NCBI RefSeq assembly: GCF_003334765.1
Contig: NZ_QOWT01000041.1
Strand: one strand, 5' to 3'
DNA length: 30,887 nucleotides
Source: Escherichia coli
GTDB lineage: Bacteria; Pseudomonadota; Gammaproteobacteria; Enterobacterales; Enterobacteriaceae
Every line of letters starts with the position of its first letter. Position 1 is the stretch's first letter. A program made the translations under genes and the position numbers. The notes below the pieces were generated by a model. That model saw only the letters and a list, made by a program, of their open reading frames with translations. It was not told where the DNA came from and searched no databases. Shown in pieces: positions 11,589-18,325 of this stretch.

Positions 11589-11644
11589 GTTCTGCGCTGT
11601 TAACGCGTAATTTACATTCAATGCCCCATTTGCGGGGCTAATTT

Positions 11645-11740
11645 CTTGTCGGAGTGCCTTAACTGGCTGAGACCGTTTATTCGGGATCCGCGGAACCTGA
11701 TCAGGCTAATACCTGCGAAGGGAACAAGAGTTAATCTGCT
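11645..11740 (+). ncRNA. TPP riboswitch (thi box) aptamer in the thiC leader
   Basis: Contains the conserved thi-box elements CTGAGA and ACCTGATCAGGCTAATACCTGCGAAGGGA; lies 80-175 nt upstream of the thiC ATG. Boundaries are approximate. Confidence 0.85.
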
Positions 11741-11817: not shown

Positions 11818-13715
<1,898 letters not shown>

Positions 13716-13716
<1 letters not shown>

Positions 13717-15284: not shown

Positions 15285-16055
15285 ATGTTACGTATTGCGG
15301 ACAAAACGTTTGATTCACATCTGTTTACCGGCACAGGGAAATTCGCTTCTTCACAACTGATGGTGGAGGCGATCCGCGCTTCCGGCAGCCAGCTGGTGAC
15401 ACTGGCGATGAAACGTGTCGACTTGCGCCAGCACAACGACGCTATCCTCGAACCGCTTATCGCGGCGGGTGTGACCCTGCTGCCAAATACATCCGGGGCG
15501 AAAACAGCGGAAGAAGCCATTTTCGCCGCCCATCTGGCTCGTGAAGCGTTAGGCACAAACTGGTTAAAATTAGAGATTCACCCTGACGCCCGCTGGCTGT
15601 TGCCCGATCCCATCGAAACCCTGAAAGCCGCCGAAACGCTGGTACAACAGGGATTTGTCGTGCTGCCTTACTGCGGGGCCGATCCGGTATTGTGTAAACG
15701 TCTGGAAGAAGTCGGCTGTGCAGCGGTGATGCCGCTCGGCGCGCCGATTGGCTCGAATCAGGGACTGGAAACCCGCGCCATGCTGGAGATTATTATCCAG
15801 CAGGCCACAGTGCCGGTGGTTGTCGATGCTGGCATCGGCGTTCCCAGCCATGCCGCGCAGGCGCTGGAAATGGGGGCCGACGCGGTGTTAGTGAATACGG
15901 CGATTGCCGTCGCGGACGATCCCGTCAACATGGCGAAGGCATTTCGTCTGGCGGTAGAAGCAGGCCTACTGGCACGTCAGTCCGGACCGGGCAGCCGCAG
16001 TTATTTTGCTCATGCCACCAGCCCGCTGACCGGATTTCTGGAGGCATCGGCATGA
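15285..16055 (+). CDS. thiG: Thiazole synthase
   Basis: 256 aa from the ATG at 15285 ([20 protein letters not shown]); the start follows the thiS stop directly (TGAAATG). Confidence 0.94.
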
Positions 16056-17185
16056 AAACCTTCAGCGATCGCTGGCGACAACTGGACTGGGACGACATCC
16101 GCCTGCGTATCAACGGCAAAACGGCTGCTGACGTAGAGCGGGCGCTAAATGCCTCGCAACTCACCCGCGACGACATGATGGCGCTGTTATCGCCTGCCGC
16201 CAGTGGCTATCTGGAACAACTGGCCCAACGGGCGCAGCGTCTGACCCGTCAGCGATTTGGCAACACAGTTAGTTTCTACGTCCCGCTTTATCTTTCCAAT
16301 CTTTGCGCTAACGACTGCACGTACTGTGGATTTTCCATGAGTAATCGCATCAAGCGCAAAACGCTGGATGAAGCGGATATTGCCAGGGAAAGTGCCGCTA
16401 TACGGGAGATGGGCTTTGAACATCTGCTGTTAGTCACTGGTGAACATCAGGCGAAAGTGGGGATGGATTACTTTCGTCGTCATCTCCCTGCCCTTCGTGA
16501 ACAGTTCTCTTCACTACAGATGGAAGTGCAACCGCTGGCGGAGACGGAATACGCCGAGTTAAAGCAACTTGGTCTGGATGGCGTGATGGTTTATCAGGAG
16601 ACATATCACGAGGCGACTTATGCCCGCCATCATCTGAAAGGCAAAAAACAGGACTTCTTCTGGCGGCTGGAAACGCCGGATCGGCTGGGGCGTGCGGGGA
16701 TTGATAAGATAGGCCTCGGCGCGCTAATTGGCCTTTCCGACAACTGGCGCGTTGACAGCTATATGGTTGCCGAACATTTGCTATGGCTGCAACAGCATTA
16801 CTGGCAAAGCCGTTACTCTGTCTCCTTTCCGCGCCTGCGCCCGTGTACTGGCGGCATTGAGCCTGCGTCGATTATGGATGAACGCCAGTTAGTGCAAACC
16901 ATCTGCGCCTTCCGACTGCTTGCACCGGAGATTGAACTGTCACTCTCCACGCGGGAATCACCGTGGTTTCGCGATCGCGTTATTCCGCTGGCGATCAATA
17001 ACGTCAGCGCCTTCTCGAAAACGCAGCCAGGTGGCTATGCCGATAATCACCCCGAGTTGGAACAGTTCTCACCGCACGACGATCGCAGACCGGAAGCGGT
17101 TGCTGCCGCGTTAACCGCTCAGGGTTTGCAGCCGGTATGGAAAGACTGGGACAGCTATCTGGGACGCGCCTCGCAAAGACTATGA
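16052..17185 (+). CDS. thiH: 2-iminoacetate synthase (tyrosine lyase, radical SAM)
   Basis: 377-aa ORF with a [10 protein letters not shown] radical-SAM cysteine motif; ATGA overlap with thiG. Confidence 0.95.
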
Positions 17186-17429
17186 GACGGAATGTAAGAA
17201 CGTAAATTTATTCCGAGCCGCTACGGAAGATGAAAAACGCAAGGTTGTTGAAAGCGTTGTGTTTTTTTATGGTAGTGCCGTCAGCAGGAATGTTGTCCAG
17301 GGCGAAAAGCTTCTTCCTCGTTTCGCCCTGCCTTTCTTAAAAATTCCGTAATGCAAAGTCTGAAGCCATCGCCTGTTGAGCAATGAAAGAGATCTGATTG
17401 TAAGAGAGTAAATACTCAACTATGATAGA

Positions 17430-17600
17430 GACGAAAATAAGAACACATGTTCTCATCTTCCAGGATGCAGCAGACTGAAGAAATTCAGACATCCCGCAAC
17501 CTGCGATTATCGCAAGGTCAAGGCAAAGTCCGGTAATGGCGTTCTGAATACCAGAGATAATTCTCTGGCGAAACCCACCTTAAGGTGGGTTTTGTTATTT
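17430..17600. ncRNA. Candidate small RNA in the thiH-htrC gap (possibly SroH; strand and ends unresolved)
   Basis: 409-bp gap with no ORF of 60 aa or more; a strong terminator at its right edge and a weak hairpin plus U-tract near 17425..17450 on the opposite strand. SroH in this interval is recalled from K-12 literature, not verified. Confidence 0.3.
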
Positions 17601-17601
17601 T
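17571..17601 (+). terminator. Rho-independent terminator (plus-strand) overlapping the htrC stop codon
   Basis: AAACCCACC-TTAA-GGTGGGTTT followed by TGTTATTTT. Confidence 0.65.
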
Positions 17602-18134
17602 GAGGGCTGAGGAAGCTGCTTATTTCTCAATAAGTTGTAGGCAATGGTGAAAAATTTCACTGATTTACCTTTCTGTTTTTCAGAAATGGGATAAGCGCTA
17701 GTTACATGCAAACGGAGTTTTTTCTTTTCCCTGAAAGCCCTGAACGCAACAAAGTAAAATGCCTTATCTCCTCCGTCTAAGTCCACCTCAATCACGGCAT
17801 AGCTACCATACCCGGCATGAATAACGTTGCTTTCTGGCAGCGCCAAAATAGTTCTTTTTAAGTGTGTGCGCGCTAAGTTATAACGGTGCTGGCAGAAGGG
17901 ACGAGATTCTTTAGGCGCGTGGTACATTAACGATTGTTTTTCTTCGTTCGTCTGATGTTCATAATCTTTTGTGAAGCAGTGAAGAGAGTAGGTAACCCAA
18001 AAGCGATACTCTAAAGGCTCTTTGCCCTCATGATGCTGAACGTAGACAGCCTGATGAGCATCAAGAAATGATAAATCACGAATATCACCATCCGGATGTC
18101 CAAAAGGTCGCCACTTTTCCACTTCCTGTTTCAT
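17595..18134 (-). CDS. htrC: Heat-shock protein HtrC (YjaZ)
   Basis: 179-aa ORF starting MKQEVEKWRPFGHPDGDIRDLSFLDAHQ; located just downstream of rpoC as in E. coli. Confidence 0.88.
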   Translation of the reverse strand: MKQEVEKWRPFGHPDGDIRDLSFLDAHQAVYVQHHEGKEPLEYRFWVTYSLHCFTKDYEHQTNEEKQSLMYHAPKESRPFCQHRYNLARTHLKRTILALPESNVIHAGYGSYAVIEVDLDGGDKAFYFVAFRAFREKKKLRLHVTSAYPISEKQKGKSVKFFTIAYNLLRNKQLPQPSK

Positions 18135-18297
18135 TCTCGTTCCTTAAGAAAGTTACACAGGAATAGTATCGAATCCTTGCCGAGTTTGACTCAATTAGTT
18201 CAGTCAGTTTCAGGATATTAGTCATCTCTACATTGATTATGAGTATTCAGAAATTCCTTAAATATTCTGACAAATGCTCTTTCCCTAAACTCCCCCC

Positions 18298-18325
18298 ATA
18301 AAAAAACCCGCCGAAGCGGGTTTTT
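18298..18325 (-). terminator. rpoC operon terminator (bidirectional hairpin)
   Basis: ACCCGC-CGAA-GCGGGT stem-loop flanked by an A-run on one side and a T-run on the other; about 25 nt after the rpoC stop. Confidence 0.8.

What the first reader, a model, noticed from the sequence alone, without database searches (positions are those of the whole stretch)
17186..17601. 409-bp ORF-free gap between convergent thiH and htrC: candidate small RNA locus
No ORF of 60 aa or more occurs here on any frame. The right edge carries a strong terminator (17571..17601) that overlaps the htrC stop codon, with an adjacent CCAGAGA-TAAT-TCTCTGG hairpin (17551..17568). A weaker candidate thiH terminator sits at 17234..17268, and a weak hairpin plus U-tract is near 17425..17450 on the opposite strand. 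I recall a small RNA (SroH) being reported between htrC and thiH in K-12, but I cannot verify its coordinates or strand.
Basis: partly seen in the sequence, partly recalled or inferred. Interest (0 to 1): 0.45.

Follow-up and report, generated by a model that had tools for sequence, protein, structure and literature searches.

The report
SroH small RNA, partner of YjaZ
The ORF-free gap holds the already catalogued E. coli small RNA SroH, but comparison with other genomes shows it is a deeply conserved, pseudoknotted RNA that travels with the neighbouring yjaZ gene as a mobile two-gene unit from enterobacteria to cyanobacteria, which suggests it works with the YjaZ protein.

Summary
Window 17186-17594 has no ORF above 51 aa. 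The Rfam family sroH (RF00372) matches 17433-17593 (+) at 201 bits, E 1e-49. A sigma-70-like promoter (17398-17426) and a terminator whose U-tail overlaps the yjaZ stop codon complete the gene. The locus is therefore already known, but the function of SroH is not.

New here:
- **Cassette:** sroH and yjaZ form a 946-bp accessory cassette (17349-18294), present in about 69% of 5,426 E. coli genomes.
- **Linkage:** The same RNA lies next to YjaZ-family genes on plasmids, phage-plasmids, prophage ends and chromosomes of many phyla. All 41 full-length yjaZ loci had it. Of 99 RNA loci, 70 had intact yjaZ.
- **Structure:** The RNA has seven helices and a pseudoknot. 97% of cells are paired, and 27 of 41 pairs show compensatory changes. 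Rfam annotates only the terminator.
- **Negative tests:** There is no conserved ORF, no pairing to the yjaZ 5' region, and no antiterminator.

The parts
16052..17185 (+). thiH coding sequence, the left border of the gap.
   Evidence: A 377-aa ORF, annotated as 2-iminoacetate synthase ThiH in identical E. coli genomes.
17186..17348 (+). thiH 3' flank, found in essentially all E. coli genomes and not part of the sroH cassette. It holds two terminator-like hairpins: 17231-17267 (A-run/hairpin/U7) and 17298-17331 (10-bp stem followed by CCUUUCUU).
   Evidence: 5,421 of 5,426 genomes match this part, while about 31% stop matching near 17349. The empty-site allele is identical up to 17348. Fold.
17349..18294 (.). 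946-bp accessory cassette carrying sroH and yjaZ, inserted between the thiH flank and the rpoC terminator.
   Evidence: Aligned against an empty site (NZ_CP026085, thiH-rpoC spacer 240 bp): the flanks match up to 17348 and from 18295. IAI39 carries different cargo at the same site. The sroH core is in 3,740 and yjaZ in 3,738 of 5,426 E. coli genomes.
17398..17426 (+). sroH promoter: -35 TTGTAA (17398-17403), 17-nt spacer, -10 TATGAT (17421-17426).
   Evidence: Promoter scan gives 9 of 12 matches. The -10 ends 7 nt before the Rfam 5' end at 17433. Homologues in other taxa have TTGACA/TATAAT-like boxes just upstream of helix P1.
17433..17600 (+). SroH RNA (Rfam RF00372), from the transcription start to the terminator U-tail.
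   Evidence: cmscan gives 201.1 bits, E 1e-49, model positions 1-161 at 17433-17593. My own models R1 and R2 score 161 and 132 bits at 17455-17600.
17433..17462 (+). 5' extension with hairpin P0 (palindrome GAACACAUGUUC, 17441-17452). It is lineage-specific and absent from most homologues. On the minus strand the same sequence forms a 12-bp hairpin with a U-rich 3' arm.
   Evidence: Folds. The upstream alignment shows most taxa start within a few nt of P1.
17463..17494 (+). P1 (17463-17467 with 17490-17494) encloses internal loop J1/2, CAGCAGA (17468-17474), and hairpin P2 (17475-17478 with 17485-17488).
   Evidence: P1 has 2 of 5 pairs with compensatory changes (GGAUG/CAUCC to GAGUG/CACUC). 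All 4 pairs of P2 covary. Coordinates.
17495..17541 (+). P5 (17495-17498 with 17538-17541) closes a junction. The junction holds hairpin P3 (17499-17503 with 17514-17518), short hairpin P4 (GG 17522-17523 with CC 17530-17531) and the invariant GGUAA segment.
   Evidence: P5 has 3 of 4 pairs with compensatory changes (CGY with RCG: GC 81/AU 12; UA 49/CG 42). P3 has 2 and P4 has 1. Coordinates.
17469..17548 (+). Pseudoknot: CAGA (17471-17474, inside the P1/P2 internal loop) pairs with UCUG (17543-17546). It is extended by a tandem G.A/A.A (17469-17470 with 17547-17548).
   Evidence: Pair 18-244 is AU in 90, GC in 2 and CG in 1 sequence. The G.A position swaps to A.G in 5 sequences and to A-U in 1. 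The diverged subfamily has CAGG with CCUG.
17551..17568 (+). P6 hairpin, CCAGAG-AUAAUU-CUCUGG.
   Evidence: 6 of 6 pairs show compensatory changes, and loop length and sequence vary.
17569..17600 (+). Intrinsic terminator T (17569-17579 with 17584-17594) plus tail UUGUUAUUU. The tail is antisense to the last codon and stop codon of yjaZ.
   Evidence: Rfam consensus structure. 8 of 11 pairs show compensatory changes. The RNA 3' end overlaps the yjaZ stop by 1-6 nt in 62 of 79 distinct convergent pairs.
17595..18134 (-). yjaZ (formerly htrC), 179 aa, the protein partner of the module. Pfam PF27200, NCBIfam NF007263.
   Evidence: NCBIfam gives 430 bits against a cut-off of 324. Homologues carry PF27200. 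The AlphaFold2 model has pLDDT 87. The best PDB fold matches are RelE/ParE-type toxins, but at Z no higher than 4.6.

Best explanation
The gap contains the known E. coli small RNA SroH (17433-17600, + strand). It is transcribed from its own sigma-70 promoter and ends at an intrinsic terminator whose U-tail overlaps the yjaZ stop codon.

SroH is not an isolated enterobacterial sRNA. Its roughly 130-nt core is a seven-helix, pseudoknotted RNA. That RNA forms a compact, horizontally mobile two-gene module with the YjaZ-family protein (PF27200) in Proteobacteria, Cyanobacteria and other phyla.

The most likely mechanism is that the folded RNA is the specific partner of YjaZ. It binds the protein and controls its activity, either as an antitoxin-like inhibitor or as an obligatory RNP cofactor. 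High-level independent transcription keeps the RNA in excess over the protein.

What is shown here: the identity as SroH, the promoter and terminator, the cassette boundaries, the RNA-protein gene linkage, and the secondary structure with covariation. What is inferred: direct RNA-protein binding and any toxin-like activity of YjaZ.
For: - **Identity:** RF00372 at 201 bits, E 1e-49. Promoter. Reported as a primary transcript, polyadenylated and of unknown function (PMC5389530).
- **Linkage, protein to RNA:** 43 genome loci encode YjaZ homologues of 38-89% identity. The RNA model hits all but two of them. One of the two is cut at the contig end and the other is a gene fragment.
- **Linkage, RNA to protein:** of 99 informative RNA copies from viral and metagenome scans, 70 have intact yjaZ, 14 have a disrupted one and 15 have none.
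- **Linkage at depth:** distant YjaZ homologues (27-36% identity) on Vibrio, Klebsiella and Pseudomonas plasmids carry a diverged copy of the RNA.
- **Mobility:**
  - a 2,462-bp ColE1 plasmid has the module as its only cargo;
  - P1-like phage-plasmids carry it;
  - so do prophage tail-fibre ends and plasmid par/recombinase regions;
  - two loci are next to tRNA or tmRNA genes;
  - the E. coli cassette has an empty-site allele.
- **Structure:**
  - 41 pairs, 97.3% of cells paired against 34-50% for slid controls;
  - 27 pairs have double changes, with 0 of 500 shuffles as high;
  - junction and pseudoknot nucleotides are invariant while peripheral loops vary.
- **Orientation is not essential:** the RNA is upstream in tandem in Vibrio and Thiomargarita.
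- **Constraint within E. coli:** the sroH core is at least 99% identical in 3,734 of 3,742 records, against 2,943 of 3,738 for yjaZ.
- **Asymmetry and replacement:**
  - intact yjaZ was never found without the RNA;
  - orphan RNAs are common;
  - on one plasmid backbone yjaZ is replaced by a relBE toxin-antitoxin pair while the RNA stays (compared).
- **Alternatives tested and not supported:**
  - no conserved reading frame;
  - no cognate-specific pairing to the yjaZ 5' region;
  - no consistent antiterminator.
Against: - No tool here can test RNA-protein binding or YjaZ toxicity.
- According to PMC5389530, citing earlier work, an sroH deletion mutant of E. coli K-12 is viable and only sensitive to envelope stress. 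That is not expected if SroH neutralised a potent toxin.
- The excess of orphan RNAs could reflect neutral decay. A 540-nt ORF is a larger and more easily scored target than a 130-nt RNA. Some frameshifts may also be metagenome assembly errors.
- The near-universal convergent, overlapping geometry could mean that a cis mechanism matters.
- Published in-vitro binding of SroH to kbl mRNA (PMC6172242) and Hfq PAR-CLIP enrichment (bioRxiv 10.1101/2020.06.29.178624) point towards conventional sRNA activity.
Confidence: 0.55

Rival explanations
1. SroH is a conventional trans-acting base-pairing sRNA, possibly Hfq-assisted. It regulates chromosomal mRNAs such as kbl or envelope-related genes, and its position next to yjaZ is incidental.
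For: - EMSA binding of SroH to kbl mRNA was reported (PMC6172242).
- SroH was enriched in Hfq PAR-CLIP, though it is 'not an established Hfq target' (bioRxiv 10.1101/2020.06.29.178624).
- It accumulates in stationary phase, and the preprint groups it with CRP-regulated sRNAs (bioRxiv 10.64898/2025.12.22.696124).
- The deletion mutant is sensitive to envelope stress (PMC5389530).
- It has a terminator with a U-tail.
Against: - The invariant nucleotides lie in helices, junctions and a pseudoknot rather than in an accessible seed.
- The same RNA occurs in cyanobacteria and on plasmids and phages, where no shared target regulon is expected.
- Linkage to yjaZ holds in all 41 full-length yjaZ loci with room downstream and extends to homologues of 27-36% identity.
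- Overexpression gave no biofilm, motility or fimbriae phenotype (PMC4606813).
- No CRP-like site with 3 or fewer mismatches lies upstream of the promoter.
Confidence: 0.12
2. SroH is a cis-encoded antisense regulator. Convergent transcription and the 3' overlap control yjaZ mRNA by transcriptional interference or RNase III cleavage of a read-through duplex, as in type I toxin-antitoxin pairs that overlap at their 3' ends.
For: - The RNA 3' end overlaps or abuts the yjaZ stop in most pairs, by 1-6 nt in 62 of 79.
- The shared hairpin has no U-tract in the yjaZ direction, so yjaZ transcripts probably read into the antisense of sroH.
- In E. coli a minus-strand hairpin at 17434-17461 could end such a transcript. 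That would give about 165 nt of perfect complementarity.
Against: - Antisense action does not need a conserved pseudoknotted fold with invariant junctions.
- In Vibrio and Thiomargarita the RNA is in tandem upstream, not convergent.
- YjaZ is a 179-aa soluble protein, not a small membrane peptide.
- Orphan RNAs persist intact after yjaZ loss.
Confidence: 0.15
3. The conserved core is a ligand-sensing aptamer, a riboswitch-like element. Its terminator decides whether transcription continues, antisense into yjaZ in most taxa and sense into yjaZ in Vibrio. The abundant 160-nt SroH would then be the terminated product.
For: - The conservation pattern is aptamer-like: invariant junction and pseudoknot, covarying stems, variable loops.
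- A terminator directly follows the fold.
- In Vibrio pVP17-2 the element ends 26 nt before the yjaZ start codon, leaving no room for another promoter.
- From my own knowledge, other 'Sro' RNAs (SroA, SroG) turned out to be terminated riboswitch leaders.
Against: - No consistent alternative pairing for the terminator 5' arm was found. It was 55% unpaired, and the remaining partners were scattered.
- The base of the terminator and its U-tail are themselves conserved and covary as a stable stem.
- The convergent and the tandem layouts would give opposite regulatory logic.
- No Rfam riboswitch family matches.
Confidence: 0.13
4. The signal is only a 3'-UTR fragment of thiH or yjaZ, a processing product rather than a gene.
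For: It lies between two convergent genes and shares its terminator hairpin with yjaZ.
Against: - It has its own promoter at the correct spacing in E. coli, and TTGACA/TATAAT-like boxes sit upstream of P1 across phyla.
- SroH is described as a primary transcript (PMC5389530).
- The cassette is absent from 31% of E. coli genomes that still have thiH.
- The RNA is on the opposite strand to yjaZ.
Confidence: 0.02

Closest known systems
SroH RNA (Rfam RF00372; E. coli K-12 sroH, found by RNomics in 2003)
   Same: It is the same gene. The full-length model matches at 201 bits, lies between thiH and yjaZ/htrC, and is about 161 nt with the same terminator.
   Different: - Rfam annotates only the terminator stem. 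Here seven helices and a pseudoknot are supported by covariation.
- Copies from cyanobacteria, Pseudomonas and other taxa score 65-79.7 bits, just under the 80-bit gathering score. They are therefore outside the curated family.
- None of the papers I could search describes the link to YjaZ.
Type III toxin-antitoxin systems (ToxIN, CptIN, TenpIN)
   Same: - Both are two-gene modules of a structured RNA and a protein.
- Both are carried by plasmids and phages.
- The protein is never found without the RNA, while orphan RNAs are tolerated.
- In Vibrio the layout is promoter-RNA-terminator-protein gene, as in ToxIN.
   Different: - The RNA is a single non-repetitive fold, not tandem repeats.
- The genes are usually convergent.
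- YjaZ shows no ToxN/AbiQ-like fold match. Its weak matches are to RelE/ParE-type toxins.
- Neither toxicity nor binding has been shown.
Type I toxin-antitoxin pairs with 3'-overlapping convergent genes (for example txpA/RatA and bsrG/SR4 of Bacillus subtilis; from my own knowledge)
   Same: The RNA gene is convergent and overlaps the 3' end of the protein gene.
   Different: - The protein is 179 aa and soluble, not a small hydrophobic peptide.
- The overlap is only 1-6 nt.
- The RNA has a conserved tertiary fold.
- Tandem layouts exist.
Ro60-Y RNA modules (Rsr with YrlA) and OLE RNA with its Oap proteins: RNP partners encoded side by side (from my own knowledge)
   Same: A structured non-coding RNA gene is syntenic with the gene of a dedicated protein, and the distribution across bacteria is patchy.
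   Different: There is no sequence or fold relation to Ro60, Y RNA or OLE. No Rfam match other than sroH was found. The module is far smaller, at about 0.75 kb.
Riboswitch-controlled antisense RNAs (for example the B12 riboswitch with AspocR in Listeria; from my own knowledge)
   Same: An aptamer-like fold plus terminator points into a convergent gene.
   Different: No antiterminator and no known ligand class were found. The terminated RNA is itself the abundant, conserved product.

Membership tests
Rfam RF00372 (SroH RNA) | The covariance-model score reaches the curated gathering score (80 bits) over the full model. | tested here: met
   201.1 bits, E 1e-49, model positions 1-161 at 17433-17593 (+).
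Rfam RF00372 (SroH RNA) | An independent transcription unit between thiH and yjaZ/htrC with its own promoter and intrinsic terminator. | tested here: met
   The promoter at 17398-17426 is 7 nt from the 5' end. The terminator stem covaries. SroH is described as a primary transcript in PMC5389530. Transcript ends were not measured here.
YjaZ family (Pfam PF27200 / NCBIfam NF007263), for the neighbouring gene | The profile score is above the curated cut-off over the whole protein. | tested here: met
   NF007263 gives 430.1 bits against a cut-off of 324, residues 1-179. All homologues carry PF27200. The local Pfam-A copy lacks this family.
Type III toxin-antitoxin (ToxIN/CptIN/TenpIN) | The antitoxin RNA is an array of tandem direct repeats that the toxin processes. 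| tested here: not met
   TRF finds no repeat in 17186-18300. The RNA is one non-repetitive fold.
Type III toxin-antitoxin (ToxIN/CptIN/TenpIN) | The RNA gene is upstream of the toxin gene on the same strand, separated by a terminator. | tested here: not met
   The genes are convergent in the window and in nearly all loci. The feature is met only in Vibrio pVP17-2 and a Thiomargarita MAG.
Type III toxin-antitoxin (ToxIN/CptIN/TenpIN) | The toxin is an endoribonuclease of the ToxN/AbiQ fold. | tested here: not met
Type III toxin-antitoxin (ToxIN/CptIN/TenpIN) | The RNA binds the protein directly and neutralises a growth-inhibiting activity. | not testable with these tools
   There is only indirect support. 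All 41 intact yjaZ loci have the RNA, while 29 of 99 RNAs lack intact yjaZ. yjaZ is replaced by relBE on one plasmid backbone.
Type I toxin-antitoxin | The toxin is a small hydrophobic peptide (below about 60 aa). | tested here: not met
   YjaZ is 179 aa with a globular alpha/beta model of pLDDT 87. ORFs inside the RNA have no conserved frame: 39, 31 and 23 cases per frame.
Type I toxin-antitoxin | The antitoxin RNA base-pairs with the toxin mRNA. | tested here: inconclusive
   The annotated genes overlap by only 1-6 nt. There is no cognate-specific pairing to the yjaZ 5' region: -32.2 against -32.1 kcal/mol for non-cognate pairs. A longer overlap through yjaZ read-through is possible but unmeasured.
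Hfq-dependent trans-acting sRNA | A conserved accessible seed, complementary to conserved target mRNAs. | tested here: not met
   The invariant nucleotides are in helices, junctions and the pseudoknot. The family occurs on mobile elements in unrelated phyla.
Hfq-dependent trans-acting sRNA | Binds Hfq in vivo. | not testable with these tools
   One PAR-CLIP preprint found SroH enriched but calls it not an established Hfq target (bioRxiv 10.1101/2020.06.29.178624).
Riboswitch | Terminator and antiterminator structures that are mutually exclusive and coupled to the aptamer. | tested here: not met
   Truncated RNAs were folded for 94 sequences. The terminator 5' arm was 55% unpaired and had no consistent partner.
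Riboswitch | Located in the 5' leader of the regulated gene. | tested here: not met
   The RNA is convergent with yjaZ in the window, and nothing lies downstream on its strand except yjaZ antisense. The feature is met only in Vibrio.
RelE/ParE toxin superfamily (for YjaZ) | Significant fold or profile similarity to RelE/ParE-type toxins. | tested here: inconclusive

The most novel reading that the evidence does not exclude
SroH and YjaZ together are a previously unrecognised kind of mobile RNA-protein module. A single, non-repetitive, pseudoknotted RNA of about 130 nt binds a YjaZ-family protein, possibly a distant RelE/ParE-like RNase, and neutralises or licenses it. On this reading the module would serve plasmids, phages and chromosomes across bacterial phyla as an addiction, stress or defence element.
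Probability: 0.4. Interest if true: 0.8.

Novelty: already known. Interest (0 to 1): 0.5.

Why it matters
As a locus this is ordinary, because SroH has been catalogued since 2003. Its function, however, and that of YjaZ (a y-ome gene whose 'heat-shock protein C' label was retracted, PMC11551758), are both still open.

The comparative evidence turns two orphan questions into one testable hypothesis: an RNA-protein pair that co-evolves, moves together on plasmids and phages, and is conserved from E. coli to cyanobacteria.

If the RNA proves to be an antitoxin-like partner, that would add a new architecture to the RNA-antitoxin systems. If it proves to be an RNP cofactor or a ligand sensor, it would be a new structured-RNA class with an accessible E. 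coli K-12 model.

Two practical points follow. The Rfam family could be extended in both structure and taxonomic range. Genome annotation could also be improved, because PGAP leaves sroH unannotated and gene callers place a spurious 50-aa ORF over the RNA.

Tried and rejected
- **Hidden small protein:** the 29-aa ORF at 17447-17536 has no NCBIfam match. ORFs over the RNA fall in all three frames (39, 31, 23) across 93 homologues. Rejected.
- **Pairing with the yjaZ 5' UTR or RBS:** RNAduplex energies were compared for cognate, non-cognate and shuffled targets. They gave -32.2, -32.1 and -33.3 kcal/mol, and the upstream regions are not conserved. Rejected.
- **Antiterminator or expression platform:** no consistent partner was found.
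- **Tandem repeats typical of type III antitoxins:** none.
- **Function of YjaZ from libraries:** the local Pfam-A copy gave nothing. PADLOC, PHROGs and PDB sequences also gave nothing. hhalign against RelE gave nothing. AFDB50 returned only uncharacterised family members.
- **Other Rfam families covering the distant copies:** only sub-threshold sroH matches.
- **CRP site upstream of the sroH promoter:** none with 3 or fewer mismatches.
- **INPHARED phage genomes:** no copy of the cassette.
- **A third conserved gene in the module:** neighbours differ between contexts. The 2.46-kb plasmid has only yjaZ and the RNA.
- **Vogel et al. 2003:** I could not read the original SroH paper, which is not held.
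Full report
**1. What is at the coordinates**

The window is an E. coli K-12-type segment, identical over the 501 bases compared (17150-17650) to many E. coli chromosomes. It runs thiCEFSGH, then the gap, then yjaZ, then rpoC. thiH ends at 17185 and yjaZ (formerly htrC) occupies 17595-18134 on the minus strand. Nothing longer than 51 aa is open between them, so the 409-bp ORF-free gap is real.

A scan of the whole window against Rfam gave three matches at gathering level. The best was sroH (RF00372) at 17433-17593 on the + strand, with 201.1 bits, E 1e-49 and the full model. A sigma-70-like promoter, TTGTAA-17 nt-TATGAT at 17398-17426, ends 7 nt before that 5' end. The RNA ends in the stem 17569-17594, followed by UUGUUAUUU. 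This tail is antisense to the last lysine codon and the TAA stop of yjaZ.

**2. What is published**

In the papers I could search, SroH is an uncharacterised sRNA.
- It is a primary transcript that is polyadenylated and accumulates in a pcnB mutant. Its 'function is still unknown', and the deletion mutant is sensitive to envelope stress (PMC5389530).
- One in-vitro target, kbl, was proposed (PMC6172242).
- Overexpression gave no biofilm, motility or fimbriae phenotype (PMC4606813).
- It rises in stationary phase, and the preprint groups it with CRP-regulated sRNAs (bioRxiv 10.64898/2025.12.22.696124).
- It is not an established Hfq target (bioRxiv 10.1101/2020.06.29.178624).
- It is missing from B2+D strains and some others (PMC3318445).
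- The 'heat-shock protein C' designation of yjaZ was retracted (PMC11551758).
- Among the papers holding at least two of the terms sroH, htrC, yjaZ and antitoxin, none held sroH together with htrC or yjaZ.

**3. The gap has two parts**

About 31% of 5,426 complete E. coli genomes match only up to about 17349. A strain with an empty site (thiH-rpoC spacer of 240 bp) fixes the limits. 17186-17348 is thiH 3' flank present in almost all E. coli genomes. 17349-18294 is a 946-bp cassette containing only sroH and yjaZ. From 18295 the sequence is the rpoC terminator region.

IAI39 carries different cargo at the same site: a ribokinase-like gene, a permease and a DUF4867 gene.

The thiH flank folds into two terminator-like hairpins. 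A stronger one is at 17298-17331, followed by CCUUUCUU.

The sroH core occurs in 3,740 genomes and yjaZ in 3,738. The core is at least 99% identical in 3,734 of 3,742 records, against 2,943 of 3,738 for the yjaZ coding sequence.

**4. The same pair occurs elsewhere**

BLAST of the cassette against plasmids gave matches that begin inside sroH and run through yjaZ, in Serratia, Enterobacter, Klebsiella, Citrobacter and Edwardsiella. Rfam sroH scored above its gathering score in all five loci I fetched, always abutting the yjaZ stop.

These loci include a P1-like phage-plasmid, where the pair sits among tail genes. They also include a 2,462-bp ColE1 plasmid whose only annotated gene is yjaZ.

YjaZ homologues (PF27200) at 40-60% identity exist in Aeromonas, Pseudomonas, Marinomonas, Psychrobacter, Pasteurellaceae, many cyanobacteria, Thiomargarita and others.

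**5. Linkage tested in both directions**

*Protein to RNA.* I built a covariance model from the window and five plasmid copies. It found the RNA in every one of the 43 genome loci except two. One of those is cut at the end of yjaZ, and the other is a gene fragment. All 41 full-length genes with room downstream have the RNA.

*RNA to protein.* The pattern GGATGCAGCAGAC-N(8-38)-GACATCCC found 5 viral and 120 metagenome stretches. I removed 8 chance matches and 19 copies at contig ends. Of the 99 that remained:
- 70 have intact yjaZ;
- 14 have a disrupted yjaZ;
- 15 have none, and most of these keep remnants of the yjaZ C-terminal codons.

*Geometry.* In 62 of 79 distinct convergent pairs the RNA 3' end overlaps the yjaZ stop codon by 1-6 nt. 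Orientation is not absolute. In a Thiomargarita MAG and in Vibrio pVP17-2 the RNA lies upstream on the same strand, and in Vibrio it ends 26 nt before the start codon.

*Distant homologues.* YjaZ relatives of 27-36% identity on Klebsiella and Pseudomonas plasmids have a diverged RNA of the same architecture. The pair has therefore co-diversified.

**6. Structure**

Aligning 101 copies (94 distinct) to a second model supports:
- helices P1, P2, P3, P4, P5 and P6 and the terminator T;
- a pseudoknot between CAGA in the P1/P2 internal loop and UCUG downstream of P5;
- a tandem G.A/A.A extension of that pseudoknot, which swaps to A.G/G.A in five sequences.

The counts are as follows:
- 41 pairs, with 97.3% of cells paired against 34-50% when partners are slid;
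- 27 pairs with changes on both sides;
- a covariation score of 0.362 against 0.137 for shuffles, with 0 of 500 shuffles as high.

The diverged subfamily has CAGG with CCUG at the pseudoknot, a further compensatory change.

The alignment was fitted to the model, which favours the structure. The slid controls and the many double changes argue that the structure is nevertheless real.

Peripheral loops vary freely in length and sequence, while the junctions are invariant from E. coli to cyanobacteria.

Rfam annotates only the terminator. The cyanobacterial and Pseudomonas copies score 79.3 and 79.7 bits, just below the 80-bit gathering score, so they fall outside the curated family.

Most taxa have TTGACA/TATAAT-like boxes directly upstream of P1. 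E. coli and some relatives add a 5' hairpin (17433-17462 in the window).

**7. What the RNA is probably not**

- **Not a peptide gene:** there is no conserved frame.
- **Not an antisense regulator of the yjaZ 5' region:** cognate, non-cognate and shuffled duplex energies are the same, and the upstream regions are not conserved.
- **Not a classical riboswitch:** no consistent antiterminator was found.
- **Not a type III antitoxin in the strict sense:** there are no repeats.

**8. The protein**

YjaZ has a confident AlphaFold2 model (pLDDT 87) and no informative relatives.

The invariant residues are rich in His, Lys, Arg and Tyr. That composition is compatible with RNA binding or metal-independent RNase chemistry, but this is an inference.

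**9. Context**

The module sits in:
- plasmid partition and recombinase regions;
- prophage tail-fibre ends;
- loci next to tRNA or tmRNA genes;
- neighbourhoods that often hold type II toxin-antitoxin pairs.

On one plasmid backbone the order DUF2913, RNA, yjaZ, tyrosine recombinase is seen in Serratia and Edwardsiella. In Enterobacter pM324-NDM1 it is replaced by DUF2913, RNA, relE-relB, tyrosine recombinase. An addiction module has taken the place of yjaZ, and the RNA is left as an orphan.

**10. Interpretation**

Shown:
- the locus is SroH;
- SroH and yjaZ form a mobile two-gene unit;
- the RNA has a complex conserved fold.

Inferred: the fold is the specific partner of YjaZ. Several observations fit an antitoxin-like role, with an obligatory RNP cofactor as a close variant:
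- intact yjaZ was never found without the RNA, while orphan RNAs are common;
- the cargo contexts are plasmids, phages and islands;
- yjaZ is replaced by relBE on one plasmid backbone;
- Vibrio has a ToxIN-like layout.

The main objections are these:
- the sroH deletion in K-12 is viable;
- the fold evidence for a toxin is weak;
- neutral decay could explain the orphan RNAs;
- the conserved convergent overlap leaves room for a cis component.

I give the partner model 0.55, cis-antisense 0.15, riboswitch-like sensing 0.13, a conventional trans-acting sRNA 0.12, and a UTR fragment 0.02.

**11. Verdict**

As a finding, the sRNA locus is already known. The added value is that two uncharacterised E. 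coli genes now form one testable RNA-protein system with a defined structure and wide distribution.

Noticed in passing
window 11640-11740 (+): A TPP riboswitch (RF00059, 74.8 bits) lies upstream of the thiC ORF (11821-13716). This is the expected leader of the thiCEFSGH operon.
   Followed up: no
window 26929-26990 (-): Rfam 'Pseudomonas sRNA P26' (RF00630, 74.5 bits) matches upstream of the large rpoB-like ORF (22647-26708, minus strand). The match includes a strong terminator-like stem.
   Followed up: no
window 28-43 (+): A perfect CRP-type palindrome, TGTGAAGTGATTCACA (0 mismatches to TGTGA-N6-TCACA), sits at the very start of the window, upstream of the 529-aa ORF at 388-1977.
   Followed up: no
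window 17349 and 18294; loci L186 and L185: The thiH-rpoC spacer is a three-state variable site in E. coli. It can be empty (240 bp; in a strain labelled DH5alpha, which is odd for a K-12 derivative). It can hold the 946-bp sroH-yjaZ cassette. Or it can hold about 5.6 kb of other cargo in IAI39: a ribokinase-like gene, a permease, two hypothetical genes and a DUF4867 gene.
   Followed up: partly
L200 2494-2632 (+); also L056, L094, L114 and L140: An intact orphan copy of the RNA lies next to a relE/relB type II toxin-antitoxin pair, at the position where related plasmids carry yjaZ. The RNA 3' tail is changed from UUAUUU to UUAUGU. Many Enterobacter, Klebsiella and Citrobacter plasmids of 57-160 kb appear to share this form.
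   Followed up: partly
L195 2252-2436 (+) and L034 2633-2865 (+): In Vibrio parahaemolyticus pVP17-2 and a Thiomargarita MAG the RNA is upstream of yjaZ on the same strand instead of convergent. The Thiomargarita copy also has an insertion of about 100 nt in P2, and it still carries a remnant of a yjaZ C-terminus after its terminator.
   Followed up: partly
L194, L198 and L199 (Klebsiella plasmids); L196 (Pseudomonas lundensis): These loci show a second subfamily of the module. The YjaZ-like proteins are 27-33% identical and are present on several hundred Klebsiella plasmids. They are paired with a diverged RNA (J1/2 GUUACAGG; pseudoknot CAGG with CCUG) that scores only 20-35 bits with the model.
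   Followed up: partly
L187 5523-5675 (-) and equivalents in L188-L190: Gene callers place a 50-aa ORF with no Pfam match exactly over the RNA. In RefSeq E. coli genomes nothing is annotated under sroH.
   Followed up: no
L100 3353-3494 and 5815-5956: A 6.9-kb metagenome contig with very high coverage (about 3,984x) carries two identical copies of the RNA-yjaZ module 2,462 bp apart. It is probably a multimer assembly of the small ColE1 plasmid.
   Followed up: no
E. coli O157 genomes H243-H245: Some O157 strains match only 88% of yjaZ, in two pieces, which suggests an internal deletion. Two O157:H7 genomes listed carry the sroH core at 100% identity.
   Followed up: no
L041 2211-2568 and L014 2535-2616: The module lies directly next to a tmRNA gene in Oceanobacter and next to a tRNA gene in Aeromonas. 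Both are typical island insertion sites.
   Followed up: no
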